Positions 4,566 to 17,891 of a stretch of 64,000 nucleotides of DNA are shown here, in pieces (within the stretch, counting starts at the first letter, position 1; each line of letters opens with the position of its first letter). The notes beneath the pieces were generated by a model that saw only the letters and a program-made list of their open reading frames with translations, was not told the origin of the DNA and did no database searches. The translations under genes were made by a program, and so were the position numbers. Origin of the DNA: Bacteroidales bacterium (GTDB lineage: Bacteria; Bacteroidota; Bacteroidia; Bacteroidales; UBA932); assembly GCA_045642485.1 (NCBI GenBank), contig JAZUIV010000002.1, forward strand, positions 5,107-69,106, read 5' to 3'.

Positions 4566-7500
4566 CTACAATTTTTGAACACTTATATTGAGAGAGGTAT
4601 CCTCCCAATCCACTTTCACGGAGTTCTCCACAACCTCCGACAAAGACAAGTCTTCCGCAAGTGTCTGCCTGCATACATAATCCTTGAACAGAGTCAGTGA
4701 ATCTTCGATATCCGGGCGTTTCTCAATCACAATCCTTATACGGTCAGTCACCTCAAATCCGCTATCCTTACGTATGTTCTGGATTCTGTTGACCAGTTCC
4801 CGGGCCACACCTTCGCGGCGGAGGGCATCGGTGACCGTCACGTCCAATGCGACGGTAAGACTGCCTTCACTTGCCACAAGCCAGCCGGGCATATCTTCCG
4901 AAGTAATCTGATAGTCTTCCGCAGTCAGTTCAACAGCGCCTCCGGGCAGAGTCAGAGAATATTCCCCTTCCCTCTCGATGGCAGAGATTGTGTTCTGGTC
5001 CAGCTGGCCGAACGCGGCTGCAATCTCCTTCATCCTGGCACCGTAGCGTTTGCCCAGAGTCTTGAAATTGGGTTTGATTTTCTTTGTAATCAGGCCGGCA
5101 GTCTCGTGGATAAATTCAGCCTCCTTCACGTTCACCTCATTGAGGATAAGCTGTTTCACAGCCTCCAGACGGGATTCCACCTCGGCATCCAGCACGGGGA
5201 TAAGAATCTTTGCAAGAGGCTGACGGACCTTAATATTGACCTTCCTGCGGAGAGCCAGAATCATCGAAGTCCCCCGTTGGGCGAGGGCCATTCTCTTCTC
5301 AAGTTCGGAATCCACGCAGACGCTATCGGCTTCGGGCATCAGATGGAGGTGCACGCAACCTGCCTCAGGGTCAAGGTCACGGAAGAGACGGTCCATATAG
5401 AATGGTGCTATCGGAGCAGCAAGCAGAGCCACGGTCTTCAATGCACCGTACAGGGTCTGGTAGGCTGAAAGCTTGGAAGCCGACATTCCACCTCCCCAGA
5501 AACGCTTGCGGTTGAGCCTTACATACCAGTTGCTCAAGTCGTCGCATACAAAATCCTGTATAAGTCGTCCGGCAGTCGTGATATCGAAGTCCTCATAACA
5601 GGTCCTCACCTTCCCTATCAGAGTATTCTGCAAGGAGATCAGCCAGCGGTCGATTTCAGTCCTTTCAGAAATCGGCACCCTGGCCGCGGCGGGGTCGAAG
5701 CCGTCCACGTTCGCATAGAGAGCGAAGAATGAATATGTATTGTAGAGCGTCCCGAAGAATTTGCGTCTGATTTCATCCACACCGGCTTCGTCGAACTTGA
5801 GGTTGTCCCAGGGCTGCGCATTGGTCAGCATATACCAGCGCAGGGCATCCGCACCGTAATTGTCGAGAGCCTCGAACGGATTGACTGCGTTTCCGAGCCT
5901 CTTGCTCATCTTGTTGCCGTTCTTATCCAATACAAGCCCGTTGGAAATCACGTTCCTGAAAGCGCACTTGCCGCTTACCATAGTATTGATGGCGTGCAGG
6001 GTGAAGAACCATCCCCTTGTCTGGTCGACACCTTCCGCTATGAAATCGGCAGTCTGTCCGAACTCGGAATGTCCCAGTTTTGCCAGTCCTTCCTGAGCAT
6101 AGGGCATCGAGCCGGAATCGAACCACACGTCAATGAGGTCCTTTTCACGGAACATCTTCCGTCCGTCATCGCTGACAAGATATATCTCATCCACATAGGG
6201 GCGGTGCAGGTCAATCTTCTCATAGTTCTCACGGGAGAAATCCCCGACTACGAAACCATTGTCAGACAAAGGATTGGTTGTCATATATCCGGCGGACACA
6301 GCTTTGTCTATCTCGTTGTAGAGTTCCTCCACGCTGCCGATGCACTTCTCGGCCGTGCCGTCTTCAGTACGCCAGATGGGAAGAGGAGTCCCCCAATAGC
6401 GGCTGCGGCTCAGATTCCAGTCCTGCAGATTTTCAAGCCATTTGCCGAACCTGCCGGAACCGGTGCTGGCCGGCTTCCAGTTTATTGTGTCGTTGAGTTC
6501 CATCATCTTCTCCCTGACAGCGGTGGAACGGATGAACCAGCTGTCGAGCGGATAGTAGAGCACCGGCTTGTCGGTGCGCCAGCAATGAGGATAAGAGTGA
6601 GTATGTTTTGCAATGTTGAACGCCTTCCCCTGCCCTTTCAGCTCTACGCAGATATCGATGTCAAGAGTGGGAGCGTCTGCCGGCAGAGAGGAATCATATG
6701 CATTCTTCACATATCGTCCGGCATAAGGTCCGTACAGTTCTCTGTTGACGCGGGCCGCAACGAAATCGGGATCCAGGTCTTCGATGCGGAACATACGTCC
6801 GGTTCTGTCCACCATCGGCTGATTATCTCCGGCGGCATCGACCACAAAGAAAGGCGGAATATTGTTCTGACGTGCCACCTTGTCGTCATCGGCACCGAAA
6901 GTGGGGGCGATGTGGACGATACCGGTACCGTCTTCGGTAGTCACGTAATCTCCGGTTATGACGCGGAAAGCCCCCTCTTCAGCCTTCATCCAGGGGATAA
7001 GCTGCTCGTAGCGCACTCCTGCAAGAGCCTTTCCGGGAATCGGTTCCCCTATCGTACTGAAAGGATTCTTATCGTTGAAATGCGCGCCCAGCAGAGATTT
7101 TGCAACGATGTATGTTGCAGGGGCCTTGGTATAGGGGTTTACGCTCTCCACGCGTATATATTCTATGTTGGGGCCGACACAGAGCGCTGTGTTGGAAGGA
7201 AGCGTCCAGGGAGTCGTGGTCCAGGCAAGAATGAACACGTCATTCCGGGTCCCTTCAAAAAGGAATTCGCTTGCGGCGTCCCTGACGACCTTGAACTGCA
7301 CGACCGCAGTGGTATCCTTCACGTCACGGTAGCAACCGGGCTGGTTCAGCTCGTGGGAACTCAATCCTGTACCGGCGGCAGGAGAATAGGGCTGGATGGT
7401 GTATCCCTTATAGAGATAACCTTTCCCGTAGATATCCTTGAGCAAATACCACAGGGTCTCTATATATCTGTTGTCGTAGGTGATATAGGCATTGTCCATA

Positions 7501-7928
7501 TCCACCCAATAGCCAATGCGTTCGGTAAGGTTACGCCACTGCTCGGTATATTTCATCACCTCGCGTCTGCAGGCATCGTTGTATTCCTTGACGGAAATCT
7601 TTTTCCCTATGTCTTCCTTGGTGATTCCCAGCATCTTCTCCACGCCCAACTCAACGGGAAGGCCGTGCGTGTCCCATCCGGCCCTGCGTTCCACGCGATA
7701 TCCGGTCTGGGTCTTGTAACGGCAGACTGCATCCTTTATGCTACGCGCCATCACGTGATGGATTCCAGGCATGCCGTTGGCGGAAGGCGGACCTTCGTGA
7801 AAGATAAAACGGGCAGCGCCTTCCCTGAGTTTCAGGGATTGTCCGAAATCATCCTCCCGCCGCCACATTTCAAGCACCTCGCGGTTGATTTCCACAAGAT
7901 CAAGATTTTTATATTCCTTGAATTTCAT
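4566..7928 (-). CDS. ileS: isoleucine--tRNA ligase
   Basis: About 1120 aa. It has the class I HIGH-type motif (PPSANGMPGIHHV) and the KMSKR motif (NKMSKRLGN). The start MKFKEYKNLD is at 7928. Confidence 0.97.
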   Translation of the reverse strand: MKFKEYKNLDLVEINREVLEMWRREDDFGQSLKLREGAARFIFHEGPPSANGMPGIHHVMARSIKDAVCRYKTQTGYRVERRAGWDTHGLPVELGVEKMLGITKEDIGKKISVKEYNDACRREVMKYTEQWRNLTERIGYWVDMDNAYITYDNRYIETLWYLLKDIYGKGYLYKGYTIQPYSPAAGTGLSSHELNQPGCYRDVKDTTAVVQFKVVRDAASEFLFEGTRNDVFILAWTTTPWTLPSNTALCVGPNIEYIRVESVNPYTKAPATYIVAKSLLGAHFNDKNPFSTIGEPIPGKALAGVRYEQLIPWMKAEEGAFRVITGDYVTTEDGTGIVHIAPTFGADDDKVARQNNIPPFFVVDAAGDNQPMVDRTGRMFRIEDLDPDFVAARVNRELYGPYAGRYVKNAYDSSLPADAPTLDIDICVELKGQGKAFNIAKHTHSYPHCWRTDKPVLYYPLDSWFIRSTAVREKMMELNDTINWKPASTGSGRFGKWLENLQDWNLSRSRYWGTPLPIWRTEDGTAEKCIGSVEELYNEIDKAVSAGYMTTNPLSDNGFVVGDFSRENYEKIDLHRPYVDEIYLVSDDGRKMFREKDLIDVWFDSGSMPYAQEGLAKLGHSEFGQTADFIAEGVDQTRGWFFTLHAINTMVSGKCAFRNVISNGLVLDKNGNKMSKRLGNAVNPFEALDNYGADALRWYMLTNAQPWDNLKFDEAGVDEIRRKFFGTLYNTYSFFALYANVDGFDPAAARVPISERTEIDRWLISLQNTLIGKVRTCYEDFDITTAGRLIQDFVCDDLSNWYVRLNRKRFWGGGMSASKLSAYQTLYGALKTVALLAAPIAPFYMDRLFRDLDPEAGCVHLHLMPEADSVCVDSELEKRMALAQRGTSMILALRRKVNIKVRQPLAKILIPVLDAEVESRLEAVKQLILNEVNVKEAEFIHETAGLITKKIKPNFKTLGKRYGARMKEIAAAFGQLDQNTISAIEREGEYSLTLPGGAVELTAEDYQITSEDMPGWLVASEGSLTVALDVTVTDALRREGVARELVNRIQNIRKDSGFEVTDRIRIVIEKRPDIEDSLTLFKDYVCRQTLAEDLSLSEVVENSVKVDWEDTSLNISVQKL

Positions 7929-7951
7929 AAACAACGTTTCGTATTAATCCA

Positions 7952-7959
7952 CAAATATA
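7952..7959 (-). promoter_or_regulatory. candidate Bacteroidota -7 promoter box (TATATTTG) for ileS
   Basis: The plus strand reads CAAATATA, which is TATATTTG on the minus strand. This matches the TAnnTTTG consensus, 24 nt upstream of the ileS ATG. Confidence 0.35.
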
Positions 7960-7999
7960 CAAAAAATGACTACCTTTACTGAAATTTATGACGATATAA

Positions 8000-8485
8000 A
8001 TGAGCACCATCGACATAATCATCGCGGTATGTTTTCTACCCTGCCTCTTCTTCGGTCTGAAGCACGGTTTGGTAAAACAGATTACAAGCCTGTGTACCAT
8101 CTATTTCGGAGTGACGCTTTCCCTGCGGTTCTCCTCTCCGGTGATGGAGTGGCTTTCCAGTCACGTGGAAATGTCTCCGCTGGCCGCGAAAATGGTGTCG
8201 TTGATCATCATCTTTTTTGTAATCGCACTTCTGCTGAGCCTTCTGGGACGTCTGGTCGAAAAAGTTTTACAGATAACTCTGCTAGGCTGGGTCAACAAAG
8301 TACTCGGTGTCGCTATGGCGTTCGTCATTTTCACCGTTACCCTCTCCGCTGTCACATTCATTGTGGATCAGGCCAACAACGCCCTGTCTTTCATACCGAA
8401 AGAGCAAATTTCAGAATCCCGGATCTACCCCGAACTCCTTAAACTTTCGAAGTTGATTTTTCCATATTTCAAACAGCTCTTCTAA
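8000..8485 (+). CDS. cvpA: CvpA family membrane protein
   Basis: 161 aa with about 4 TM helices. The N-terminus IDIIIAVCFL..GLKHGLVKQ is typical of CvpA. Confidence 0.75.
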   Translation: MSTIDIIIAVCFLPCLFFGLKHGLVKQITSLCTIYFGVTLSLRFSSPVMEWLSSHVEMSPLAAKMVSLIIIFFVIALLLSLLGRLVEKVLQITLLGWVNKVLGVAMAFVIFTVTLSAVTFIVDQANNALSFIPKEQISESRIYPELLKLSKLIFPYFKQLF

Positions 8486-8817
8486 AGTTTTTCCACATTC
8501 GTGTAAATCCGTCACCGACGCATAAAATTCATACGTTTGGAGCATATCCCTTTACCGGGGTATGCTGAACTTTGCGCTATGAAAAACGACGGAAAAATTT
8601 TACCCCTGACCGAGTTGGATGGACTTGCGGAAGATATGTTGCCTAACGCCCCCGGGGCTCTCAATTTCTTCTTCTGCTTGCTAATAACCGCAACGCTTCT
8701 GCTCTCCATCCTTCCGGTCTTTTTTTTTAACTGATGATGCGGGGGCGATTGAGGGGACGGATGTCTTTTTGAGGGGGAAGACGAGGGGAAGACGCCCCCT
8801 TTTGTTGAAATGAATTT

Positions 8818-10893
8818 ATGAAAACCGATATCAAACAACACGACGAATCGGATTGCGGCGCTGCCTGCATCGCTTCAGTGGCAAGGCATTACGGGAAGAA
8901 CATCCCCATTGCTCTCATACGTGAAGAGTCCGGAACATCGCGGAGCGGCACCACAATAAAGGGTATCATTGATGCGTGCCACGCGACCGGATTCATCAGC
9001 GGGGCATACAAGGCCCCGGAAAAGGAGATTGAGCGGCTGAGGAAAGTGCCCTGTCCGGTAATCCTCCACACAGTGAACAGAAGAGGCGATCTGCACTTCG
9101 TCGTGTTGTATAGTATCGGCAAGAAGAAGGCTATCGTAATGGACCCTGCGCAAGGGACAAGAATCAAAATGGACCTGAGCCGGCTGCAGAAGGAGTGGAC
9201 AGGTTATCTGATTACAATGGCTCCGGACCCGGAAGCCGGGCGCGACTGGGCAGGCAGCGGCGGAAAGACGAACGTGATGCGATTCTTCCGCCTGATAGAC
9301 GTGAAGGAGTACGCACTGATGCTTGCCGGGTCGCTCGCATACATCACAGCAGGCATAAGCATCGCTCTCTTTCTCCAGCTTATAATCGACAAAGTACTGC
9401 CCTCCGGAGACATAGCCGAACTTATGAAAGCAGGCGGATTTATGCTTGCCATAATGGTTTGCACGCTGCTTCTCGGTTACGGGAGGGCACTCTACTCCAT
9501 CAGGCTCAATCTTCACCTTGACAGCCGGCTGGTAATGGGATACCTCTCCCATCTGTTTCGTCTGCCGGTAAGTTTCTTCACAAAAAGAGGAGCCGGAGAA
9601 CTCAACTCCAGAATCGGAGACATATCCAAAATACGAAGTTTTCTCACGGAAGGCATCTCCGGAATTGCGACCAACCTGCTCATTCTGGCCGTATCCTTCC
9701 TGCTGATGTTCACCTACCACTGGCGGCTTGCAGCGATGATGCTGATGTTCATTCCTGTATATCTGATATTATATGCAGTTGCCAACAGAGTGAACAGAAG
9801 GCTGAACCGCGAAATCATAGAGAGTTCCGCGGAATTTGAGGAAAAGACAGTCGAAAGCATAACGGGAGTGAAGGTGCTGAAATATTTCGGTAGCGAGCAG
9901 ACCTACTTCAGGGCCATCCGCAGACAGTATATGGAACTTGTCGGGAAACTGTACAGCGGAGGAAAATATGTGGGAGCCTTCTCAAGCTGGGCTGACGCAA
10001 TCTCCAAACTGATGACCGTCACCCTGCTGACCGCCGGATCCAATTTCATCTTCGCCGGAGAACTCACCGTGGGAGAACTCGTATCATTCTATTCTCTTTC
10101 GGTTTATTTCTCAATGCCGCTCAGCCAATTGGCGGGCATCAGCGAAAGTATGACCGAGGCGAATATCTCCGCCGAGAGAATCGGTGAAATCGAAGACCTT
10201 GACAGCGAAGGTACGGACACTCTGGAATTCACCCCGAACAGAAATGCGGACATTGTACTTGACAACATAGACTTCTCCTATCCGGGCTGCCCCATCCTGC
10301 TGGAAGGCTTCTCGATGAAAATACGGGCAGGCAGGATAACGGCGCTCCAGGGAGAGAGCGGGTGCGGGAAAAGTTCGATAGCAGGGCTTCTGATGAGGGA
10401 TTTCCCTGTCCGCAAAGGGCGAATCTTCATAGGTGATATGCCCATTGACCTGATAGACCTCGGCATCTGGAGAAAGTTCGTTTCGATTGTACCGCAGGAC
10501 GCTCCGCTTATGAATGGGACGATTCTTGAAAACATAACCTGCCTGGACAGTGAGCCAGACCTTGCAAAAGTGTCGCGGATAATCGATGAACTGGGGCTGA
10601 CAGGATTCATTCGTGAACTGCCCTTGGGTCCTCTTACCAAGGTCGGAGCGAGAGGTTCAGTACTCTCCGGAGGGCAGAAGCAACGCATAGCCCTGGCCAG
10701 AGTGTTGTACCTGGACCCTCAGGTCATAATTCTGGACGAGGCGACATCCTCGCTCGACGAGGCTTCCGAAAAAATCATTCTTGATAAACTCAATGATCTT
10801 AGGGACAAGGGGAAAACCATACTGATGATAACCCACAAAAACGACAACGCCCGGATAGCGGATTACAGGATTGAAATGAATGCGCATTCATAA
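8818..10893 (+). CDS. peptidase C39 domain-containing ABC transporter (bacteriocin/peptide-cleaving exporter)
   Basis: 691 aa. The N-terminal C39 signature is QHDESDCGAACIASV (catalytic Cys13), followed by GDLHFVVL (His) and DPAQG. Six TM segments follow. ABC motifs are Walker A GESGCGKSS, signature LSGGQKQR and Walker B IILDEATSSLD. Confidence 0.92.
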   Translation: MKTDIKQHDESDCGAACIASVARHYGKNIPIALIREESGTSRSGTTIKGIIDACHATGFISGAYKAPEKEIERLRKVPCPVILHTVNRRGDLHFVVLYSIGKKKAIVMDPAQGTRIKMDLSRLQKEWTGYLITMAPDPEAGRDWAGSGGKTNVMRFFRLIDVKEYALMLAGSLAYITAGISIALFLQLIIDKVLPSGDIAELMKAGGFMLAIMVCTLLLGYGRALYSIRLNLHLDSRLVMGYLSHLFRLPVSFFTKRGAGELNSRIGDISKIRSFLTEGISGIATNLLILAVSFLLMFTYHWRLAAMMLMFIPVYLILYAVANRVNRRLNREIIESSAEFEEKTVESITGVKVLKYFGSEQTYFRAIRRQYMELVGKLYSGGKYVGAFSSWADAISKLMTVTLLTAGSNFIFAGELTVGELVSFYSLSVYFSMPLSQLAGISESMTEANISAERIGEIEDLDSEGTDTLEFTPNRNADIVLDNIDFSYPGCPILLEGFSMKIRAGRITALQGESGCGKSSIAGLLMRDFPVRKGRIFIGDMPIDLIDLGIWRKFVSIVPQDAPLMNGTILENITCLDSEPDLAKVSRIIDELGLTGFIRELPLGPLTKVGARGSVLSGGQKQRIALARVLYLDPQVIILDEATSSLDEASEKIILDKLNDLRDKGKTILMITHKNDNARIADYRIEMNAHS

Positions 10894-10944
10894 CGGCGAA
10901 TCCCCTCCGCCGTCGTGTGAGGGGAAACGGAAAAAACAAAGAAA

Positions 10945-11145
10945 ATGGAAGAAAAACTAATGAAAGGATTGGGGTTTGGAGAGCTGGATTCTTCCGAACT
11001 CCGTATTCTGGGAGGGGCATCAACCCCCCTGTGGCAAAAAATCGTCGACAAGGTGAGGAATATGATTGACTTCATCAGCGATTACATTCCCAAACTCATT
11101 CAGGGATTCAGGGACGGATTCTCAGCCAGACCTCTCATAAATTAG
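10945..11145 (+). CDS. double-glycine-leader peptide A (bacteriocin-like precursor; predicted 42-aa mature peptide)
   Basis: 66-aa ORF, 51 nt after the ABC stop. The leader is MEEKLMKGLGFGELDSSELRILGG, with an alternative start M6 at 10960. The predicted mature peptide is ASTPLWQKIVDKVRNMIDFISDYIPKLIQGFRDGFSARPLIN, starting at 11017. It is Cys-free and has a GxxxG motif (GFRDG). Confidence 0.7.
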   Translation: MEEKLMKGLGFGELDSSELRILGGASTPLWQKIVDKVRNMIDFISDYIPKLIQGFRDGFSARPLIN

Positions 11146-11157
11146 GAGGGAACTGAC

Positions 11158-11319
11158 ATGACGAAAGAGATGTTAGCAGGTTTCGCTCCTGTCGATATGC
11201 AGGAAGCGGCATTTGTTCTTGGCGGACTTGACAAGAGGGCTCAGGATGCTCTTTACACAATCGGTTATGTAATCGGGGTGGTCGTCCGTCTGTTTGCGAG
11301 AATCATTTCCTGGTTCTAA
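11158..11319 (+). CDS. double-glycine-leader peptide B (bacteriocin-like precursor; predicted 30-aa mature peptide)
   Basis: Hand translation gives MTKEMLAGFAPVDMQEAAFVLGG|LDKRAQDALYTIGYVIGVVVRLFARIISWF*, 53 aa, below the track cutoff. An AGGAGGG sequence lies 7 nt upstream of the ATG. The leader has E(-8), V(-4) and GG(-2,-1). The mature part is hydrophobic with a GxxxG motif (GYVIG). Confidence 0.6.
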   Translation: MTKEMLAGFAPVDMQEAAFVLGGLDKRAQDALYTIGYVIGVVVRLFARIISWF

Positions 11320-11332
11320 TACGCCTAACGAG

Positions 11333-12649
11333 ATGAAACTACGGCTTATTCTCATTATGGCAGGTTTGCTGGCAGTGTTCAGCGCGAGGGCAAAGAACCC
11401 CGTCACCCTGCGTGAGTGCATAGACTATGCAATGGAGCATAATCTCACTATCAGAGAGAACAATCTCACCGTTGAAGAGAAAAAGACGGACCACACAAGA
11501 AAACTGATGTCACTTTTTCCCACAATATCCCTTTATGGCAGCGGGAACCTCAACTGGGGACGCAGCGTGGATATGCAGGAACTGGTCATAATCAAGAATA
11601 AGCTTACCGAATCCGCGAGTCTGTCATTGGGAGCGGAGTGGACTGTATTCGACGGGCTTTCCGGTTTCTTTTCCAAGAAGGCGGCCCGATATGAAATAGA
11701 CGCCGCTCTGCTTGACAATGACAGGCTTAAGAATGAGATTTCCCTGAACATTACGGAAGCATATCTGCAATTGATTCTTTCCGAGGAACTTTCAAAAGTT
11801 GCGTATTACAACTACCGGAAGATGCTTTCCGAACGGGAGAGAATCGCATCCCTGGTGGAAGAGGGGCAGCAGCCCAGGAGCGCACTCTACAACATCGAGG
11901 CCCAATGCGCAGGGGAACTGGCCCGGCTCACCGGATGCAGATGCGACAACAAAAGAAATATAATGAAACTGGCTCAACTTCTCAACCTGCCGTATGACGG
12001 CAGTTTCAAGGCGGAATATCCGCTTGATGGAGAAGAAACGCCGCCACCTCCATCCAGCACAATCGAGGAGATAGAGTTGTATGCTGAACGGATGCCGGAC
12101 ATCCTCTCGATGAAGAGCATTGTGGAAAGCAAACGGAATCTTTTCTCCGCAGCAAAAGGGTCGGCAGCCCCGACAATCACACTATCCGGAGCCTATTCCT
12201 CATACTACAGCAGTACGGCGGAAGGAAAATTCGGGGCGCAGCTGCGCGGCAACGTAAACCCTTCCGTGGGAGTTTCAATCGAAGTCCCGCTGTTCGACGG
12301 CTATTACAGTGCTGCGGCCATAAAGAACGGACGGATGGAATACGAACGGGCCAGACTTCAGGTGGAGGAACGGCGGCAGGATATGGTGGCAACCATCCAG
12401 TCGGCATTCATAGAGGCGGATAATCTTTACCAGATGATGCTTTCTGCGAAAAAAAAGATGGACGCCGCCGAAAAACTGCTGGACGCGTCGCTGGTCAAAT
12501 TCGACCTGGGAGGCATAACGGCAGTGGAGTACACAGTCACCCGCACCGATTTCCTGACAGCCCAGAGTGAATACATCCGAAGCAAATGGCAATATGTCTT
12601 CCAACTCAAAATCATAGACTACTACAAAGGAAACCCGATTGAATTATAG
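11333..12649 (+). CDS. TolC family outer-membrane efflux protein
   Basis: Start at the ATG at 11333 (MKLRLILIMAGLLAVFSARA signal peptide). The rest has TolC-like repeats (LTLRECIDYAMEHNLTI, LNITEAYLQL). The track's 11294 start would overlap peptide B. Confidence 0.85.
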   Translation: MKLRLILIMAGLLAVFSARAKNPVTLRECIDYAMEHNLTIRENNLTVEEKKTDHTRKLMSLFPTISLYGSGNLNWGRSVDMQELVIIKNKLTESASLSLGAEWTVFDGLSGFFSKKAARYEIDAALLDNDRLKNEISLNITEAYLQLILSEELSKVAYYNYRKMLSERERIASLVEEGQQPRSALYNIEAQCAGELARLTGCRCDNKRNIMKLAQLLNLPYDGSFKAEYPLDGEETPPPPSSTIEEIELYAERMPDILSMKSIVESKRNLFSAAKGSAAPTITLSGAYSSYYSSTAEGKFGAQLRGNVNPSVGVSIEVPLFDGYYSAAAIKNGRMEYERARLQVEERRQDMVATIQSAFIEADNLYQMMLSAKKKMDAAEKLLDASLVKFDLGGITAVEYTVTRTDFLTAQSEYIRSKWQYVFQLKIIDYYKGNPIEL

Positions 12650-13828
12650 ATGATACGAAGATTTTTCAAGGACGGACAGGGCAAAAGGGCCCGGAAAGTT
12701 GCAGCGGTGGCTGGTGGCCTCATCATTTTCATAATGATAATTGCAAAAGCCTGCTCCGGAGACAGGATTTCGGTTCAGACAATGACCGTGTTTCCCTCAA
12801 GGCTTGAAGAGGCCATCCCTTCAAGCGGCAAGATTCATCCCGTGAAAGAGGTAAAACTTTCACCCGATGTTTCCGGAGAGATAGTGGAGGTCCGGTGCGG
12901 GGAGGGCGACTATGTCCGGAAGGGGGACACTCTGATACTCATTCGCCGGGACACCTACATCTCGCGCGTGGAGAGAGCCCGGGCTTCGCTCTCAGCACTG
13001 AAAGCCCAGCACTGCAGGAACAAGGCAGAGCTCTCGAAGGCAGAACTCGAATACAGCAGGAACACCCGCCTGTTCGAAGGAGGGGCGATATCCAAGGCCG
13101 TGTACGAAAATTCCAAAGCCGGCTACGAGATAGCGGAGCAGACGGTACTGGCCTCCAAATATACCATTCTCAGCGGAGAGGCGGAGTTGAAAGAGGCTCT
13201 GGAAAGCCTTGCGAAAACCACTATCTGCGCTCCTACGGACGGCATCATATCCAGACTGACGGTAGAGCCGGGGGAGAGAGTTGTCGGGACAAGCCAGATG
13301 GCGGGTACCGAGATGCTTCGGATAGCGGACCCCGACCGGATGGAACTCGTTGTGGACGTGGGAGAAAACGATGTTGTCAGAATATGCGAGGGGGATAGTG
13401 TCTCCATCGAAATCGATGCCCATCCACGCCACATTTTCACAGGAAAGGTCACCCAAATCGCAAATTCCGCAAAAAATCTGGACGTTTCTTTCGAAAAGCT
13501 CACTAACTTTGAAGTCCGGATGGAGATTGTTCCCGATGGGGCAAAACTTCTTCCGGGGATGTCGGCTTCGGCGTCAATAGTCACACAGTCAAAACAGGAA
13601 TGCCTGGCCATTCCTCTGGGATGCGTCTTTACGGAGGGCAGGCAGGAGTTTGTCTGGGTGTTGCGTGACGACAGGTCTGTCGAAAAGAGGGCCATATCGA
13701 CCGGCATCCAGAACCTTAAGGAAATTGAAGTGACCGATGGGCTGGAGGAAGGAGAGGAAATTGTCACCGCCCCTCTCTCGGCCATCAACAAGGACCTGAC
13801 CGACGGACAAAAAGTAAATAGAGACTGA
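12650..13828 (+). CDS. HlyD/efflux periplasmic adaptor (membrane fusion protein)
   Basis: 392 aa. It has an N-terminal TM anchor, a biotinyl/lipoyl-like hairpin (VRKGDTLILI ... ICAPTDGIISRL), a coiled coil and a beta-barrel. Its ATG abuts the TolC TAG. Confidence 0.85.
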   Translation: MIRRFFKDGQGKRARKVAAVAGGLIIFIMIIAKACSGDRISVQTMTVFPSRLEEAIPSSGKIHPVKEVKLSPDVSGEIVEVRCGEGDYVRKGDTLILIRRDTYISRVERARASLSALKAQHCRNKAELSKAELEYSRNTRLFEGGAISKAVYENSKAGYEIAEQTVLASKYTILSGEAELKEALESLAKTTICAPTDGIISRLTVEPGERVVGTSQMAGTEMLRIADPDRMELVVDVGENDVVRICEGDSVSIEIDAHPRHIFTGKVTQIANSAKNLDVSFEKLTNFEVRMEIVPDGAKLLPGMSASASIVTQSKQECLAIPLGCVFTEGRQEFVWVLRDDRSVEKRAISTGIQNLKEIEVTDGLEEGEEIVTAPLSAINKDLTDGQKVNRD

Positions 13829-13829
13829 A

Positions 13830-14516
13830 ATGGCTACAATACTTCTTGTGGAAACGAGCACTGACTGCTGCAGCGCGGCAATCTGCCAAGACAACACCTT
13901 ACTTGCCGGAATGAAGGAAACGGCGCCCAAGGTACACGCATCAAAACTTGTACCTATGATCAACGATATTCTTGATGCCACATCACTGACGATGAAGCAG
14001 ATTGACGCAGTGGCCGTCAGCGGGGGGCCAGGTTCCTACACAGGTCTGCGAGTGGGTGTCTCCACCGCAAAAGGGCTCTGCTTCGGAGCGGGGAAGCCGT
14101 TAATCTCCGTTGGCACTCTGGATATCCTTGCTGCTCAGGGCGCGCAAGGCAGAGAGCATCCCGATTTCATCGTCCCATTCATTGATGCAAGGAGGATGGA
14201 AGTCTATTGCGCAGTCTATTCCGGCGATGGCAACCGCAAGTCGGATGTCGAAGCCGTCATCCTCGATGAAAGCAGTTTCCAGCCCCTTCTGGAGCAGGGC
14301 AAAGTTCTCTTCATCGGAACCGGTGTGGACAAATTCGCCGATATTCGCCATCATCCGAATGCCGTATTCGAGGAGAGTTTTCCCACTGCCCCGTATATGG
14401 CAGAACTCGCGGTGAAGGCATACGCACAAAAAAAGTTCGAAGACGTTGCGTACTTCGAACCTTTCTATCTCAAGGAGTTCAAGCCGGGAATCAGCAAGAA
14501 GTCCCCGCTGCTATAG
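13830..14516 (+). CDS. tsaB: tRNA threonylcarbamoyladenosine biosynthesis protein TsaB
   Basis: 228 aa. Motifs ILLVETSTDCCSAAI and GPGSYTGLRVGVSTAKGL are typical of TsaB/YeaZ. Confidence 0.88.
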   Translation: MATILLVETSTDCCSAAICQDNTLLAGMKETAPKVHASKLVPMINDILDATSLTMKQIDAVAVSGGPGSYTGLRVGVSTAKGLCFGAGKPLISVGTLDILAAQGAQGREHPDFIVPFIDARRMEVYCAVYSGDGNRKSDVEAVILDESSFQPLLEQGKVLFIGTGVDKFADIRHHPNAVFEESFPTAPYMAELAVKAYAQKKFEDVAYFEPFYLKEFKPGISKKSPLL

Positions 14517-15656
14517 ATTCTTGACTATCACCTGCTCCAGTTTCTCCGTATTGAAGATATCCCTTTCAACGATATCCCCGTCCTTGTTAATGACGAACAT
14601 AGTCGGAACCCTGGAGATGTTGTAGGCCAGGACAGAAGGTGAATCGATCCCCTGACCGTCGTTCACACTTATCCAGGGAAGATTCTGGCTCCTGATTGTC
14701 GCAGCCCAGGAAGGCTTGTCAATATCGAGGGAAACCTGATAGATTTCAAGCCCTTTTGCGTGATACTTCCCATAGATGCTCTCCAGTTCCTTGTTAAACA
14801 TCTTGTGTTCGTCCTGAGCCGTACTCCAGAATGAAAGGACTATCACCTTCCCCTTCAGTTCGGACAGAGACCTTGTCTTTCCGTCTATGTCGGGCATCGC
14901 TATGTCAGGAAAACTCACTGACTGAAGTTCCAGAAGTCTGTTGTTCAGACTGGCGACTGAGGCGCGTCTTGAAATCTCATCGTTCAGGGATGAGATGTAT
15001 TCGCTTCTGGGATAGACCACTGACAGAGAATCGCAAACCCTCCTGAAGATGACAACGTCGGAAGGTTCGTCAAAAACGGGAAGATTTTCGTTGAATTTCT
15101 GGAAAAGAGCAACGGCGGAAGTGATTGAGAAAGGATGCTCCATAATGAAGTGAGTAGCCTCCCTCCGGTAATCCACATAAGTCCGGCTGAGCTTCCTGTT
15201 GATCTCCTTCAAGGCGGCTTCATTTGACTGTTCCCTGGCGGAAATACCTTCCTTGGCAAGGGCTGAGATGGTGCCAGACGCCTTGCCGAACATATTGTTC
15301 AGTTCCAGGAAAAGAGCCGACTCTTCGGACCCTTCCACGCTGTAACCTCCGGTTGTGGAAGCTTTCAGAGAGACCTTGTCCCCATCCTTGAGGACGAGCG
15401 CGGCAATCTGCCTGTCTCCGGAGAATATGTAATAGAAATAAGGTTCGTTGCCGGTCAGGGCGACCTTGTATCTGAAGGCGCCGGATGCATCCGTCTTGAT
15501 GGTATCAACCACTGCAAACTTGTTGTAATTAAGTTTGCGCAATACAACGGAACTGTCCGCAGCACCGTCTATCACCGCCGAAATCACCGCCTGAGGCCCG
15601 TTGCTGCAGGAAGAAATCAGAACCGCCGCAAGGGCGAATATCATAAGTTTTTTCAT
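14511..15656 (-). CDS. TlpA/thioredoxin-fold lipoprotein (DUF4369-like N-domain) lacking the CxxC active site
   Basis: 381 aa. The lipobox is AAVLISSCS. The C-terminal thioredoxin-like fold reads VIVLSFWSTAQDEHK where WCGPC is expected. Confidence 0.75.
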   Translation of the reverse strand: MKKLMIFALAAVLISSCSNGPQAVISAVIDGAADSSVVLRKLNYNKFAVVDTIKTDASGAFRYKVALTGNEPYFYYIFSGDRQIAALVLKDGDKVSLKASTTGGYSVEGSEESALFLELNNMFGKASGTISALAKEGISAREQSNEAALKEINRKLSRTYVDYRREATHFIMEHPFSITSAVALFQKFNENLPVFDEPSDVVIFRRVCDSLSVVYPRSEYISSLNDEISRRASVASLNNRLLELQSVSFPDIAMPDIDGKTRSLSELKGKVIVLSFWSTAQDEHKMFNKELESIYGKYHAKGLEIYQVSLDIDKPSWAATIRSQNLPWISVNDGQGIDSPSVLAYNISRVPTMFVINKDGDIVERDIFNTEKLEQVIVKNL

Positions 15657-16688: not shown

Positions 16689-17891
16689 ATGAAAAATCAC
16701 GAGAGAAAAGTCGGGACAGTCTCCCGAGGCATCCGCTGCCCGATAATCAGACAGGGCGACAATCTTGCAAATATAGTAACCGAAAGCGTGCTGGAAGCCG
16801 CGGCTGAAGAAGGTTTCACTTTGAGGGACAGAGACATCGTCAGCATCACCGAATCGGTGGTAGCCAGGGCTCAGGGCAATTACGCCCCTGTTTCCGCCAT
16901 CTCATCAGATGTCCGGCAGCAGACCGGAGGAGGCACGGTCGGTGTCATCTTTCCCATCCTGAGCCGCAACCGTTTTGCAATCTGCCTGCGCGGTATCGCG
17001 AAAGGGTGCAGCAAGGTGGTTCTGATGCTCTCCTACCCTTCCGACGAGGTAGGGAACTCCCTTGTCAGCATTGATGCTCTTGACAAAGCCGGGGTCAACC
17101 CCTACTCGGACGTCCTGTCTCTCGAAAGATACCGGGATCTTTTCGGTGTGAACAAGCACGAGTTCACCGGGGTCGATTACGTCGAATACTATTCGGAGCT
17201 TGTCCGCGGATGCGGCGCCGAGGTGGAGGTGGTCTTCGCCAACAAGCCCGAAACCATTCTGAAATACACCGACACTGTCATCACCTGCGACATACACACC
17301 CGCGCCCGGACAAAGAGAATTCTCAAAGAGGCTGGGGCAAGGATTGTTCTCGGTCTTGACAACATTCTCTGCAAGAGCGTTGAAGGAAGTGGGTACAATG
17401 AGAAATACGGCCTGCTGGGTTCCAACAAGGCCACCGAGGACACAGTCAAGCTTTTCCCCCGCGAATGTCAGGGTCTTGTGCTGGACATCCAGAAAGCGCT
17501 TCTGGAGCGCACCGGAAAGCACATTGAAGTGATGGTCTATGGCGACGGCGCCTTCAAGGACCCCAAGGGCAAAATCTGGGAACTGGCCGACCCTGTCGTC
17601 TCCCCGGCATTCACCGACGGACTGAGGGGCACTCCCAACGAGTTGAAACTGAAATATCTGGCCGACAACGATTTTGCAAGCCTCAGCGGAGCACAGCTCA
17701 GGGATGCCATCTCCGAAAGCATAAAGGCGAAGGGCAGCGACCTCAAGGGGCAGATGTCCTCCGAAGGGACAACACCCCGTCAGCTTACGGACCTTATCGG
17801 ATCGTTGTGCGACCTGACGAGCGGTTCCGGCGATAAGGGGACCCCCATAGTCCTGGTGCAGGGCTACTTCGACAACTACACCTCAGAATAG
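16689..17891 (+). CDS. CofE-like (F420-0:gamma-glutamyl ligase family) domain protein, long form
   Basis: 400 aa. The N-terminal segment PIIRQGDNLANIV...RDRDIVSITESVVARAQGNY resembles the F420_ligase fold signature. The function in Bacteroidota is unknown. Confidence 0.5.
   Translation: MKNHERKVGTVSRGIRCPIIRQGDNLANIVTESVLEAAAEEGFTLRDRDIVSITESVVARAQGNYAPVSAISSDVRQQTGGGTVGVIFPILSRNRFAICLRGIAKGCSKVVLMLSYPSDEVGNSLVSIDALDKAGVNPYSDVLSLERYRDLFGVNKHEFTGVDYVEYYSELVRGCGAEVEVVFANKPETILKYTDTVITCDIHTRARTKRILKEAGARIVLGLDNILCKSVEGSGYNEKYGLLGSNKATEDTVKLFPRECQGLVLDIQKALLERTGKHIEVMVYGDGAFKDPKGKIWELADPVVSPAFTDGLRGTPNELKLKYLADNDFASLSGAQLRDAISESIKAKGSDLKGQMSSEGTTPRQLTDLIGSLCDLTSGSGDKGTPIVLVQGYFDNYTSE

What the first reader, a model, noticed from the sequence alone, without database searches (positions are those of the whole stretch)
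8818..13828. Self-contained two-peptide, GG-leader bacteriocin/microcin-like cassette with a tripartite (C39-ABC / TolC-like / HlyD-like) exporter
There are five co-directional, tightly packed genes.
1. A 691-aa ABC exporter with an apparently active N-terminal C39 peptidase (QHDESDCGAAC catalytic Cys, GDLHFVVL His, DPAQG) and complete Walker A, signature and Walker B motifs.
2. A 66-aa ORF with a double-glycine leader.
3. A 53-aa ORF with a double-glycine leader.
4. A TolC-family outer-membrane factor.
5. A HlyD-type adaptor whose ATG abuts the TolC stop.

Established knowledge: C39-ABC exporters cleave GG leaders during export of class II bacteriocins and of colicin V/microcins (the CvaB-CvaA-TolC paradigm).

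Seen here: both predicted mature peptides (42 and 30 aa) lack Cys, are net cationic (about +2 each by my count), and each has one GxxxG motif (QGFRDGF and IGYVIGV). GxxxG is the hallmark of class IIb two-peptide bacteriocins of Firmicutes.

Inference: this is a two-component membrane-active peptide toxin or signal that carries its own Gram-negative-type exporter. I cannot match it to a described family. The Bacteroidales GG-leader toxins I recall (bacteroidetocins) are single, disulfide-containing peptides.

The cassette is wedged between the core genes cvpA and tsaB, with a 1-nt gap to tsaB. It contains no recognisable immunity gene.
Basis: partly seen in the sequence, partly recalled or inferred. 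Interest (0 to 1): 0.85.

Follow-up and report, generated by a model that had tools for sequence, protein, structure and literature searches.

The report
Ancient two-peptide export operon in Bacteroidales
An uncultured group of gut and rumen Bacteroidales carries, at one fixed chromosomal site, a peptide-cleaving exporter plus two small helical peptides that look like a two-part bacteriocin; the set has been inherited vertically for a long time and sits behind a previously undescribed structured RNA leader.

Summary
Window 8818-13828 encodes a C39-peptidase ABC exporter, two double-glycine-leader peptides (66 and 53 aa), a TolC-family channel and a periplasmic adaptor, packed tightly and ending 1 nt before tsaB.

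Both peptides are real genes. They are conserved with the exporter in about 26 distinct lineages of uncultured Bacteroidales, with dN/dS of 0.05-0.32, like the neighbouring genes. The GG site and one GxxxG motif per peptide are among the very few invariant positions. Neither peptide matches Pfam, NCBIfam, PDB or the searchable literature.

The interpretation needs correcting:
- The cassette is not a recent island. It occurs only between cvpA and tsaB, diverges at a rate similar to its host genes, and is absent from viral contigs. Related genomes with a clean cvpA-tsaB junction show at least one loss or a second gain.
- The adaptor is MacA/RND-type. OEP-MFP-tsaB is an older Bacteroidota linkage onto which the C39-ABC and peptides were grafted.
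- Peptide 1 is amphipathic and near-neutral, not reliably cationic.

Whether the peptides are a toxin or a signal remains unresolved.

The parts
8000..8485 (+). cvpA, an inner-membrane 'colicin V production' family protein. It is the invariable upstream neighbour and a possible accessory factor. It is also present at empty sites.
   Evidence: PF02674, E 5.6e-24. It lies directly upstream in every cassette locus. It abuts tsaB at empty sites.
8567..8574 (+). GAACTTTG, which resembles the Bacteroidetes -7 promoter box (TAnnTTTG). This is a candidate promoter for the leader and operon, by inference only.
   Evidence: The nAAnTTTGC motif is conserved upstream of sORF0 or the leader in all three spacer types. 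The consensus is recalled from established knowledge of Bacteroides promoters and was not tested here.
8579..8734 (+). sORF0, a conserved 51-aa ORF with a C-terminal hydrophobic helix (…ATLLLSILPVFFFN) and no GG leader. Its role is unknown: candidate leader peptide, regulator or immunity factor.
   Evidence: It is kept open at 50-51 codons in 13 or more distinct loci. It is precisely absent in the L001-type and other lineages. dS is 0.1-0.35 against 0.8-1.2 for the neighbours, and dN/dS is 0.4-0.7. It matches no family.
8738..8807 (+). Structured leader. P1 is GGGGGCG (8741-8747) paired with CGCCCCC (8793-8799). P2 is GTCTT/AAGAC. The internal loops are G/A-rich. A T-run follows (8800-8807), ending 10 nt before the ABC start codon.
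   Evidence: Model R1 hits the window at 31 bits (E 4.7e-5) and hits the same position in other loci, with no significant hit elsewhere in 470 kb. P1 is 99% paired, 6 of 8 pairs show double changes, and 0 of 500 shuffles reach this. The predicted fold contains P1 and P2. There is no Rfam match.
8818..10893 (+). Peptidase-containing ABC transporter (PCAT): N-terminal C39 domain, six-helix membrane domain and ATPase.
   Evidence: The catalytic Q7, C13, H93 and D109, plus the Walker A, signature, Walker B and H-loop motifs, are invariant in 34 orthologues.
10945..11145 (+). pep1 precursor. The leader is 10945-11016 (MEEKLMKGLGFGELDSSELRILGG). The mature 42-aa amphipathic helix is 11017-11142, with the invariant motif Y..P….G…G.
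   Evidence: Homologues and alignments. dN/dS 0.05-0.32. GxxxG in 24 of 24 sequences. AF2 models a helix at residues 28-61. μH about 0.65, reached by ≤2% of shuffles in most sequences.
11158..11319 (+). pep2 precursor. The leader is 11158-11226 (MTKEMLAGFAPVDMQEAAFVLGG) and fits the canonical pattern: F at -15, V at -12, E at -8, V at -4, then GG. The mature 30-aa hydrophobic cationic helix is 11227-11316, with the core DKRAQDALYTIGYVIG.
   Evidence: Only 18 clusters among 1.84 billion representative proteins. dN/dS 0.05-0.27. AF2 models a helix with pLDDT above 90 for residues 31-50.
11333..12649 (+). TolC-family outer-membrane factor with a Sec signal peptide. An alternative TTG start at 11294 would overlap pep2.
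   Evidence: PF02321, two repeats. TIGR01844 at 88 bits, below its cutoff. Start and signal peptide read.
12650..13828 (+). Periplasmic adaptor (membrane fusion protein) of the MacA/RND_mfp type, with an N-terminal membrane anchor.
   Evidence: TIGR01730 at 200 bits (above cutoff) and MacA NF008606 at 124 bits. HlyD_D23, HlyD_3 and Biotin_lipoyl_2 in Pfam.
13830..14516 (+). tsaB, the t6A dimerisation subunit. It is tightly packed against the adaptor gene and is the last gene of the co-directional array.
   Evidence: TIGR03725 at 181 bits. The MFP-tsaB junction has a gap of 15 nt or less, or an overlap of up to 8 nt, in all loci. OEP-MFP-tsaB also occurs with MacB-type pumps.

Best explanation
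This is a chromosomally fixed, vertically inherited operon that makes and exports a pair of unmodified helical peptides.

**Shown here**
- The genes and their order.
- The invariant catalytic and ATPase residues of the C39-ABC.
- The invariant GG sites and GxxxG motifs of both peptides.
- Purifying selection on both peptide genes.
- Strict co-occurrence of the three core genes.

**Inferred from established knowledge of PCATs (CvaB, ComA, LagD)**
Transcription enters from upstream, through a terminator-like structured leader that gates read-through. The two precursors are translated from adjacent genes 12 nt apart. The C39 domain recognises their leaders and cuts after Gly-Gly. ATP hydrolysis drives the 42-aa amphipathic pep1 and the 30-aa hydrophobic, cationic pep2 through the ABC dimer. 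A MacA-type adaptor and a TolC-like channel carry them across the periplasm and outer membrane.

**Inferred by analogy with class IIb two-peptide bacteriocins**
Outside the cell the two helices pack through their GxxxG faces. They then act together on a membrane or a membrane protein of other bacteria. The strictly conserved polar N-terminus of pep2 (DKRAQDALYTIGY) probably binds a conserved partner.

No dedicated immunity gene seems to be needed. Possible reasons are that export bypasses the producer's inner membrane and the outer membrane shields it, or that sORF0 or CvpA provides protection.
For: - **Anatomy and domains:**
- **Active PCAT:** invariant Q/C/H/D and ATPase motifs in 34 orthologues.
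- **pep2 leader:** fits the canonical GG-leader pattern (E at -8, V/I at -4, hydrophobic at -12 and -15) in every member.
- **pep1 leader:** MEEK…SSEL…GG is almost invariant.
- **Co-occurrence:** ABC, pep1 and pep2 occur together in every cassette lineage. This includes L085, whose ABC is only 35% identical (hhalign 96% and 94%), and L028/L029, which lack OEP and MFP.
- **Spacing:** the pep1-pep2 gap is 2-18 nt.
- **Selection:** dN/dS is 0.05-0.32 with dS in the same range as the neighbours.
- **GxxxG:** the two glycines are two of only three invariant mature positions in pep1. In pep2 they are among the five most conserved.
- **Structure:** both mature peptides model as single helices. pep1 is strongly amphipathic and pep2 is hydrophobic with a basic tail.
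- **Class IIb criteria** (adjacent genes, 15-30 aa GG leaders, dedicated ABC, GxxxG in all members) are taken from PMC2850506.
- **Precedents:** Bacteroidales GG-leader toxins without immunity genes (PMC6671954) and Gram-negative two-protein GxxxG bacteriocins exported by a T1SS (PMC5380434).
- **Dispensability:** empty sites show the system is accessory, as expected for a competition factor.
Against: - No activity, cleavage or expression data exist, because all carriers are uncultured MAGs.
- Long vertical inheritance at one site, and near-invariance of the mature peptides across lineages whose IleS is only about 65-75% identical, is unusual for antagonistic toxins. Those usually diversify, move horizontally and show strain-level presence/absence.
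- There is no recognisable immunity gene in the operon. sORF0 is missing from many cassette lineages.
- pep1 is near-neutral, unlike the typically cationic class IIb peptides.
- There is no sequence similarity to any known bacteriocin family. A single pep2 member touches PF10439 at E 0.02.
- The operon is tightly packed against the housekeeping gene tsaB, which suggests steady basal expression.
Confidence: 0.5

Rival explanations
1. The exported pair is not a weapon. It is a lineage-wide signal or physiological factor, for example a cell-cell signal, an envelope or vesicle-associated factor, or a host- or community-directed peptide. The PCAT/MFP/OMF machinery works as above, but the mature peptides bind a conserved receptor in the producers themselves.
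For: - The family occurs only at one syntenic site and diverges at a rate similar to its host genes.
- The mature cores are extremely conserved. DKRAQDALYTIGY is invariant across the 18 sequences of alignment A2, while ABC identity to the window falls to about 53% and OEP identity to about 36% in such lineages.
- There is no immunity gene.
- Expression appears gated by a dedicated structured leader.
- The operon is packed against tsaB.
- There is no association with mobile elements or phage.
Against: - There is no sensor kinase, regulator or receptor gene nearby. The neighbours are lspA, dksA, ileS, tsaB, a thioredoxin-like gene, HIT and greA.
- The system has been lost cleanly in related lineages.
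- A hydrophobic 30-36 aa helix with GxxxG paired with an amphipathic partner is typical of membrane-active peptides, not of known Gram-negative signals.
Confidence: 0.25
2. Only pep1 is cargo. pep2, with or without sORF0, stays in the producer's membrane as a small immunity or accessory protein. It sits immediately downstream of the structural gene, as class II immunity genes do.
For: pep2 lies directly after pep1 and is dominated by one hydrophobic helix. Class IIb operons normally carry an immunity gene next to the structural genes (PMC2850506).
Against: - pep2 has an invariant GG preceded by a canonical leader pattern (E at -8, small residue at -7, V/I at -4, hydrophobic at -12 and -15). 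The rest of the N-terminal segment varies in sequence and length (15-26 aa), which is the signature of a cleaved leader.
- The pep1 and pep2 profiles resemble each other through the leader (hhalign 86%).
- Known immunity proteins lack GG leaders.
Confidence: 0.1
3. The small ORFs are chance reading frames or decaying remnants, and the transporter exports something else, such as a lipid, a drug or another peptide encoded elsewhere.
For: Neither peptide hits any curated family. Gene callers often missed or mis-started them.
Against: - Both ORFs are retained in every cassette lineage, with conserved length, GG sites and motifs.
- dN/dS is 0.05-0.32.
- They appear as called genes in public data, as 6 and 18 clusters.
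- The C39 catalytic residues are invariant, which implies a GG-leader substrate.
Confidence: 0.03

Closest known systems
Class IIb two-peptide bacteriocins of Firmicutes (lactococcin G, plantaricin EF/JK, enterocin 1071)
   Same: - Two different 30-45 aa unmodified helical peptides are encoded side by side in one operon.
- Both have 15-30 aa double-glycine leaders and a dedicated C39-ABC transporter.
- Each peptide has a conserved GxxxG.
- One partner carries a basic C-terminal tail (…FKKDKPTA in most pep2 sequences).
   Different: - The producer is Gram-negative, so an adaptor and an outer-membrane channel are added.
- There is no immunity gene and no sequence homology.
- pep1 is near-neutral.
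- The locus is fixed in the chromosome and vertically inherited instead of variable or plasmid-borne.
- A structured RNA leader precedes the operon.
- Activity is untested.
Colicin V / class II microcin export (CvaB-CvaA-TolC, with the chromosomal cvpA requirement)
   Same: - A GG-leader peptide is cleaved and exported by a C39-ABC with a periplasmic adaptor and a TolC-type channel.
- A cvpA gene is genetically associated. Here it is the invariable upstream neighbour.
   Different: - The adaptor is MacA/RND-type, not CvaA/HlyD-type.
- The outer-membrane factor is encoded in the operon.
- There are two peptides instead of one, and no cvi-like immunity gene.
- The carriers are Bacteroidales, not Enterobacteriaceae.
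- cvpA also sits at the same place in genomes without the cassette, so the adjacency may be historical only.
Bacteroidetocins (Bacteroidales GG-leader toxins; PMC6671954)
   Same: - The host order is Bacteroidales.
- There is a GG leader of about 15 aa and a mature peptide of about 42 aa.
- A C39-ABC transporter is present.
- No immunity protein is encoded.
   Different: Bacteroidetocins are single peptides with four Cys. Their loci encode a thiol oxidoreductase and a 5-TM protein and lie on horizontally acquired mobile elements. Here there are two Cys-free peptides, no such accessory genes, an OEP and MFP, and a fixed non-mobile locus.
Caulobacter Cdz system (CdzAB T1SS, CdzC/CdzD glycine-zipper proteins, CdzI; PMC5380434)
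   Same: It is a Gram-negative two-protein bacteriocin-like system. The small proteins bear GxxxG motifs, are exported by an ABC/adaptor type I system, and are encoded in the chromosome.
   Different: - Cdz proteins carry extended glycine zippers, aggregate on the cell surface and kill by contact.
- Cdz needs the essential 3-TM immunity protein CdzI.
- The paper's text does not mention a C39 domain or a double-glycine leader.
- There is no sequence relationship to the peptides here.
MacAB-TolC-type tripartite ABC efflux pumps of Bacteroidota
   Same: The OEP and MFP genes here are of this type. They sit immediately upstream of tsaB, as they do in other Bacteroidota, where the pump is ABC ATPase + MacB_PCD/FtsX permeases + MFP + OEP.
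   Different: The MacB-type ATPase and permease genes are replaced by a single C39-ABC half-transporter plus its two peptide substrates.

Membership tests
Class IIb two-peptide bacteriocins (criteria from PMC2850506) | [quoted passage not shown] | tested here: met
   pep1 and pep2 are co-directional and 12 nt apart in the window (2-18 nt in all loci), and always co-occur.
Class IIb two-peptide bacteriocins (criteria from PMC2850506) | A 15-30 residue double-glycine leader on both preforms | tested here: met
   The pep1 leader is 23-25 aa (15 aa in L085) and the pep2 leader is 15-26 aa. GG is invariant. The pep2 leader fits the canonical -15/-12/-8/-4 pattern.
Class IIb two-peptide bacteriocins (criteria from PMC2850506) | A dedicated ABC transporter with a leader-cleaving peptidase domain | tested here: met
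   A C39 + ABC protein is encoded in the same operon, and its catalytic residues are invariant. Cleavage itself was not tested.
Class IIb two-peptide bacteriocins (criteria from PMC2850506) | A GxxxG (or AxxxA/SxxxS) motif in both peptides | tested here: met
   pep1: 24 of 24 at a fixed position. pep2: 22 of 24, with AxxxG in the other two. In the divergent L085 pep2-like peptide the corresponding position reads IAECIG, i.e. AxxxG. The glycines are among the few invariant columns.
Class IIb two-peptide bacteriocins (criteria from PMC2850506) | An immunity gene in the same operon | tested here: not met
   There is no immunity-like gene between ABC and tsaB. sORF0 (51 aa, one TM helix) lies upstream but is absent from many cassette lineages.
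Class IIb two-peptide bacteriocins (criteria from PMC2850506) | Both peptides are needed in about equal amounts for antibacterial, membrane-permeabilising activity | not testable with these tools
   This needs synthetic peptides or expression.
Class IIb two-peptide bacteriocins (criteria from PMC2850506) | Sequence membership in a described bacteriocin family (for example Pfam PF10439) | tested here: not met
   No member reaches threshold. One of 19 pep2 members hits PF10439 at E 0.022.
Colicin V / class II microcin systems | A GG-leader precursor plus a CvaB-type C39-ABC | tested here: met
Colicin V / class II microcin systems | A CvaA/HlyD-family adaptor | tested here: not met
   TIGR01843 (type I HlyD) scores 58 bits against a cutoff of 209, and TIGR01000 scores 25 bits. 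The best matches are RND_mfp (200 bits, above cutoff) and MacA.
Colicin V / class II microcin systems | A dedicated immunity gene (cvi-like) next to the structural gene | tested here: not met
   None was found.
Bacteroidetocins (PMC6671954) | A single peptide with four cysteines, plus thiol oxidoreductase and 5-TM protein genes | tested here: not met
   There are two peptides with 0 Cys in the window and 0-1 in homologues. The nearby thioredoxin-like gene (14511-15656, minus strand) is part of the conserved flank and is also present at empty sites.
Bacteroidetocins (PMC6671954) | Location on horizontally acquired mobile elements | tested here: not met
   The locus occupies one fixed syntenic site in all lineages, its dS is in the same range as the flanks, its GC matches the flanks, and it has no hits on viral contigs.
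Known cis-regulatory RNA families (Rfam 15) | A match to a curated covariance model | tested here: not met
   There is no hit at gathering score on the window, nor at E≤10 on the window leader. The majority-type leader gives only a 9.7-bit chance hit.
Intrinsic terminator / transcription attenuator | A G+C-rich stem followed by a U-run, lying between the promoter and the first gene | tested here: inconclusive
   The P1 stem plus U-run lies 10-35 nt before the ABC start, and the stem covaries. However, the enclosed loop of about 45 nt with conserved G/A-rich sequence is atypical, L026 lacks the U-run, and termination or read-through was not measured.

The most novel reading that the evidence does not exclude
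The pair is not a bacteriocin. It is a clade-wide exported two-helix factor whose production is controlled by a new class of structured RNA leader: a riboswitch-like or protein-dependent attenuator with G/A-rich internal loops, optionally preceded by a 51-codon leader ORF. The always-adjacent CvpA would be a working partner of the C39-ABC exporter. That would give the first genomic-context clue to the 35-year-old 'colicin V production' phenotype of cvpA.
Probability: 0.15. Interest if true: 0.8.

Novelty: new variant of a known kind. Interest (0 to 1): 0.6.

Why it matters
If the peptides are antimicrobial, this would be a class IIb-like two-peptide bacteriocin native to Bacteroidales. No such system turned up in the literature searched here. 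It would be made by abundant but uncultured rumen and gut bacteria, and its small unmodified peptides (4.86 and 3.48 kDa) can be synthesised directly and tested.

Its evolutionary pattern is unusual for bacteriocins. It has one chromosomal site, long vertical descent, strong purifying selection and no immunity gene. The locus therefore bears on how a peptide weapon, or signal, can become a stable lineage trait.

The locus also shows how a peptide exporter can be assembled by grafting a C39-ABC and its substrates onto a resident MacA/TolC pair.

Finally, it supplies a candidate new cis-regulatory RNA and a natural cvpA-PCAT neighbourhood that could be used to probe CvpA function.

Tried and rejected
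1. **Recent insertion or mobile island: rejected.** The family occurs at one syntenic site only, its dS and GC match the flanks, and it has no viral-contig relatives.
2. **Universal, essential core locus: rejected.** About 15 related metagenomic loci have cvpA abutting tsaB (gap 3-57 nt). The IleS+TsaB tree needs at least one loss or a second gain.
3. **pep1 as a small TetR-like HTH protein: rejected.** The only support is a single 19-bit stretch to one PDB chain (2ras_A). No TetR_N hit appears for any member. AF2 gives a disordered leader plus one long helix.
4. **Anti-terminator pairing between the C/U-rich sORF0 region and the G/A-rich 3' half of the leader: dropped.** It looked attractive by eye and in MFE folds. 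However, duplex energies are no better than shuffles (fraction ≤ observed 0.10-0.99), and the best site is inconsistent between loci.
5. **CvpA co-diverging with the cassette: weakened.** L085 has the cassette but a CvpA only 26% identical to the window's, like CvpA at empty sites.
6. **Anti-phage defence: rejected.** PADLOC gives only generic ABC-ATPase similarity.
7. **RiPP precursor: rejected.** No modification enzyme is encoded in or near the operon.
8. **Dead ends.** The window's own record could not be identified. The simple sigma-70 and terminator scan found nothing above shuffles. The IIBacFinder supplements are not held as text.

Full report

Yes. The ORF listing gives five co-directional genes:
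- a 691-aa ORF at 8818-10893;
- a 66-aa ORF at 10945-11145;
- a 53-aa ORF at 11158-11319;
- an outer-membrane factor, with its ATG at 11333 followed by a signal peptide (an upstream TTG at 11294 would overlap pep2);
- a 392-aa adaptor at 12650-13828, whose ATG directly follows the OEP stop and whose own stop lies 1 nt before tsaB (13830-14516).

Pfam and NCBIfam find Peptidase_C39 + ABC_membrane + ABC_tran in the first gene. The best NCBIfam model is TIGR01193, 'peptide cleavage/export ABC transporter'. They also find two OEP repeats in the channel gene, and RND_mfp (200 bits, above cutoff), MacA-like and HlyD_D23 in the adaptor. cvpA (PF02674) and tsaB (TIGR03725) flank the array. The two peptides hit nothing.

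The C39 catalytic Gln, Cys, His and Asp, together with the Walker A, signature, Walker B and H-loop motifs, are invariant in 34 distinct orthologues.

**2. Are the small ORFs genes?**

- A word-indexed search of 5.8 billion proteins found 6 clusters for pep1 and 18 for pep2.
- An exhaustive HMM search of 1.84 billion representatives found only 18 clusters for pep2, so this is a very small family.
- I extracted both ORFs from every fetched locus. The GG is invariant in both.
- The pep1 leader is almost fixed (MEEK.M…G…L.SSEL…GG). Its mature part keeps …KIRN.ID.I.DY.P.L..G..DG..
- pep2 keeps E at -8, V/I at -4 and hydrophobic residues at -12 and -15 before the GG, which is the canonical leader pattern. 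Its mature core is [VI]DK.AQ.ALY.IGY..G.
- Pairwise Nei-Gojobori dN/dS on eleven locus pairs gives 0.05-0.32 for pep1 and 0.05-0.27 for pep2. dS is in the same range as for ileS, ABC, OEP, MFP, tsaB and greA.
- The GxxxG glycines are two of only three invariant mature positions in pep1 (Y47, G54, G58). In pep2 they are among the five most conserved.
- AF2 models each mature peptide as one continuous helix. For pep1 this is residues 28-61, pLDDT about 70-77, with a disordered GG region. For pep2 it is residues 14-52, with pLDDT above 90 for residues 31-50.
- pep1 is strongly amphipathic (μH about 0.65 at mean hydrophobicity about 0, reached by ≤2% of shuffles in most sequences). pep2 is hydrophobic, usually with a basic C-terminal tail.
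- pep1 is not reliably cationic across the family (-1 to +3).

**3. Where does it occur?**

Every pep2 relative whose context I could read lies in the same slot, including the most divergent ones (P0038 and P0035). The slot is lspA-dksA-ileS(-) | cvpA-[sORF0]-ABC-pep1-pep2-OEP-MFP-tsaB | thioredoxin-like(-)-HIT(-)-greA(-).

A scan of species-representative genomes with CvpA as bait returned 23 loci, 20 of them uncultured Bacteroidales/Bacteroidia MAGs, mostly from rumen (goat, buffalo, sheep, yak, deer). All 20 have ABC-pep1-pep2 after cvpA. L028 and L029 lack OEP and MFP. No viral contig encodes a relative. The cassette's GC matches its flanks.

All these loci were found through cassette-linked genes. 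I therefore used TsaB as bait on metagenome contigs. About 15 loci have the same flanks, but cvpA abuts tsaB directly (gap 3-57 nt). Their IleS identity to the window (62-71%) is similar to that of cassette-bearing lineages. One further locus (L046) has the full cassette.

L085 has a 35%-identical C39-ABC with a divergent but homologous peptide pair (hhalign 96% and 94%).

A neighbour-joining IleS+TsaB tree places cassette lineages in two groups, separated by empty-site lineages. One empty lineage is sister to a cassette group. The tree has no support values, so it is only indicative.

The cassette is therefore old at this site and has been lost cleanly at least once, or gained twice. It is dispensable. 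It is neither a recent island nor an essential core function.

**4. Origin of the exporter**

In many non-syntenic Bacteroidota loci, tsaB is immediately preceded by OEP and MFP genes. These belong to MacB-type pumps: ABC ATPase, two MacB_PCD/FtsX permeases, MFP, OEP, MFP, tsaB.

The OEP-MFP-tsaB linkage is thus older than the peptide system. This explains why the adaptor here is MacA/RND-type and not CvaA/HlyD-type. The simplest reading is that a C39-ABC and its two substrates replaced the MacB components in front of a resident adaptor/channel pair.

**5.

The 332-nt cvpA-ABC spacer contains two features.

(a) sORF0 (8579-8734) is a 51-codon ORF ending in a hydrophobic helix. It is kept open at 50-51 codons in 13 or more lineages but precisely deleted in others. 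Its dS is three- to four-fold lower than that of its neighbours, and its dN/dS is 0.4-0.7. This points to a nucleotide-level constraint that I could not explain.

(b) A structured element of about 70 nt (8738-8807) ends in a T-run only 10 nt before the ABC start codon, which leaves no room for a promoter.
- A covariance model built on 14 majority-type copies finds the window copy (31 bits, E about 5e-5). It also finds copies in L011, L037, L046 and, weakly, L026. Every significant hit is at this position, with none elsewhere in about 470 kb.
- The outer stem is 99% paired. Six of its eight pairs show compensatory double changes, 0 of 500 shuffles reach this, and slid controls give about 60% pairing. 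One caveat applies: the alignment was fitted to the model.
- L034, L025 and L028 show analogous hairpins by eye, with different stem sequences. L085 has none.
- No Rfam family matches.

I read this as a candidate attenuator or riboswitch-like leader. What it senses is unknown. One specific idea, anti-termination by pairing with sORF0, failed a shuffle test.

**6. Mechanism**

Shown here:
- the gene set and its order;
- the invariant catalytic machinery;
- the canonical leaders;
- co-inheritance of the three core genes;
- purifying selection;
- helical, GxxxG-bearing mature peptides.

Inferred from established PCAT biology: cleavage after GG coupled to ATP-driven export, with passage through the adaptor and the TolC-like channel.

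Inferred by analogy with class IIb bacteriocins (criteria in PMC2850506): the two helices associate through their GxxxG faces and act together on a target membrane or membrane protein.

The missing immunity gene is not disqualifying in this order. Bacteroidetocin producers also lack one (PMC6671954). A Gram-negative two-protein GxxxG bacteriocin exported by a T1SS also exists, the Cdz system (PMC5380434), although Cdz needs CdzI.

Some features fit a conserved signal or physiological factor better than a weapon. These are the long vertical descent, the near-invariant mature cores, the tight packing against tsaB and the dedicated leader RNA. I keep that as the main rival.

**7. Comparison with known systems and novelty**

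The locus meets four of the class IIb criteria that sequence can test: adjacent genes, GG leaders, a dedicated C39-ABC, and GxxxG in both peptides. It fails two: an immunity gene and sequence membership.
- It is not a ColV-type system in its adaptor or immunity.
- It is not a bacteroidetocin locus: it has no Cys, no thiol oxidoreductase or 5-TM genes, and it is not mobile.

Large-scale mining already predicts thousands of GG-leader precursors in Bacteroidota by context rules (PMC12648112). The existence of such a locus is therefore not surprising. However, these peptide motifs appear nowhere in the searchable literature.

I rate it a new variant of a known kind, for four reasons:
- a class IIb-like pair in Bacteroidales;
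- a chimeric PCAT/MacA/TolC exporter;
- an unusual evolutionary mode;
- an undescribed RNA leader.

**8. Limits**

- All carriers are uncultured, and there are no expression, cleavage or activity data.
- Taxonomy below the order is unknown. One locus is labelled Muribaculaceae.
- The tree is distance-based and has no support values.
- The window's own public record could not be retrieved.
- CvpA's role is open. Its function is 'largely unknown' apart from the historic colicin V link (bioRxiv 10.1101/2020.09.25.314492). It also sits next to tsaB at empty sites, and in a more distant genome it sits in an infB-suf context.

Noticed in passing
window 8738-8807 (+): A conserved, covarying stem-loop with G/A-rich internal loops and a T-run ends 10 nt before the ABC start codon. 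It matches no Rfam family. It is a candidate attenuator or riboswitch-like leader of the operon.
   Followed up: partly
window 8579-8734 (+): sORF0 is a 51-codon ORF with a C-terminal hydrophobic helix. It is conserved in 13 or more lineages but precisely deleted in others. Its dS is 3-4 times lower than its neighbours' and its dN/dS is 0.4-0.7, which implies an unexplained nucleotide-level constraint. The last 30 nt or so are nearly invariant DNA (CTGTCC[A/G]TCCTGTCGGTC[A/G]TTTTTTTCC in the majority type).
   Followed up: partly
L069 2926-10666; L109 4146-10663; also L065, L073, L075, L084, L094-L097, L102, L110, L118: In diverse (including marine) Bacteroidota, tsaB lies immediately downstream of a MacB-type tripartite efflux operon (ABC ATPase, two MacB_PCD/FtsX permeases, MFP, OEP, MFP). 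The linkage between an essential tRNA-modification gene and an efflux pump appears widespread, and I cannot explain it.
   Followed up: partly
L044, L045, L050, L052-L056, L058, L059, L061, L062, L067, L082, L086: These are empty sites: cvpA and tsaB are separated by only 3-57 nt in related Bacteroidales, with the same ileS and trx-HIT-greA flanks.
   Followed up: yes
L028 4772-5930; L029 12848-14000: One cassette lineage keeps cvpA-ABC-pep1-pep2-tsaB but lacks the OEP and MFP genes. The minimal conserved core is therefore the C39-ABC plus the two peptides. The outer-membrane passage must be supplied in trans, or it is not needed.
   Followed up: no
L040 8001-8516 (and L041, L042): A distant CvpA (28% identical) sits in a nusA-infB-cvpA-sufBCDS context. 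I could not check whether cassette-bearing genomes also hold such a second cvpA.
   Followed up: no
alignments A7 and A8 (pep1 and pep2 families): The two peptide profiles align weakly with each other (hhalign 86%, E 4.7e-6), mainly through the leader. They may descend from a tandem duplication.
   Followed up: partly
window 14511-15656 (-): A thioredoxin-like (DUF4369/AhpC-TSA/Thioredoxin_8) gene converges on tsaB and overlaps its end by 6 nt. It belongs to the conserved flank and is present at empty sites too, so it is not a bacteroidetocin-style oxidoreductase for these Cys-free peptides.
   Followed up: yes
window 16689-17891 (+): A 400-aa protein matches the F420-0:gamma-glutamyl ligase family (PF01996, E 4e-55). 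This is an unexpected annotation for a Bacteroidales genome.
   Followed up: no
window 5994-7982 (+), 8875-9720 (-), 13123-13791 (-): These long ORFs lie antisense to ileS, the ABC gene and the MFP gene. They are mechanical by-products of codon bias and have no independent support.
   Followed up: no
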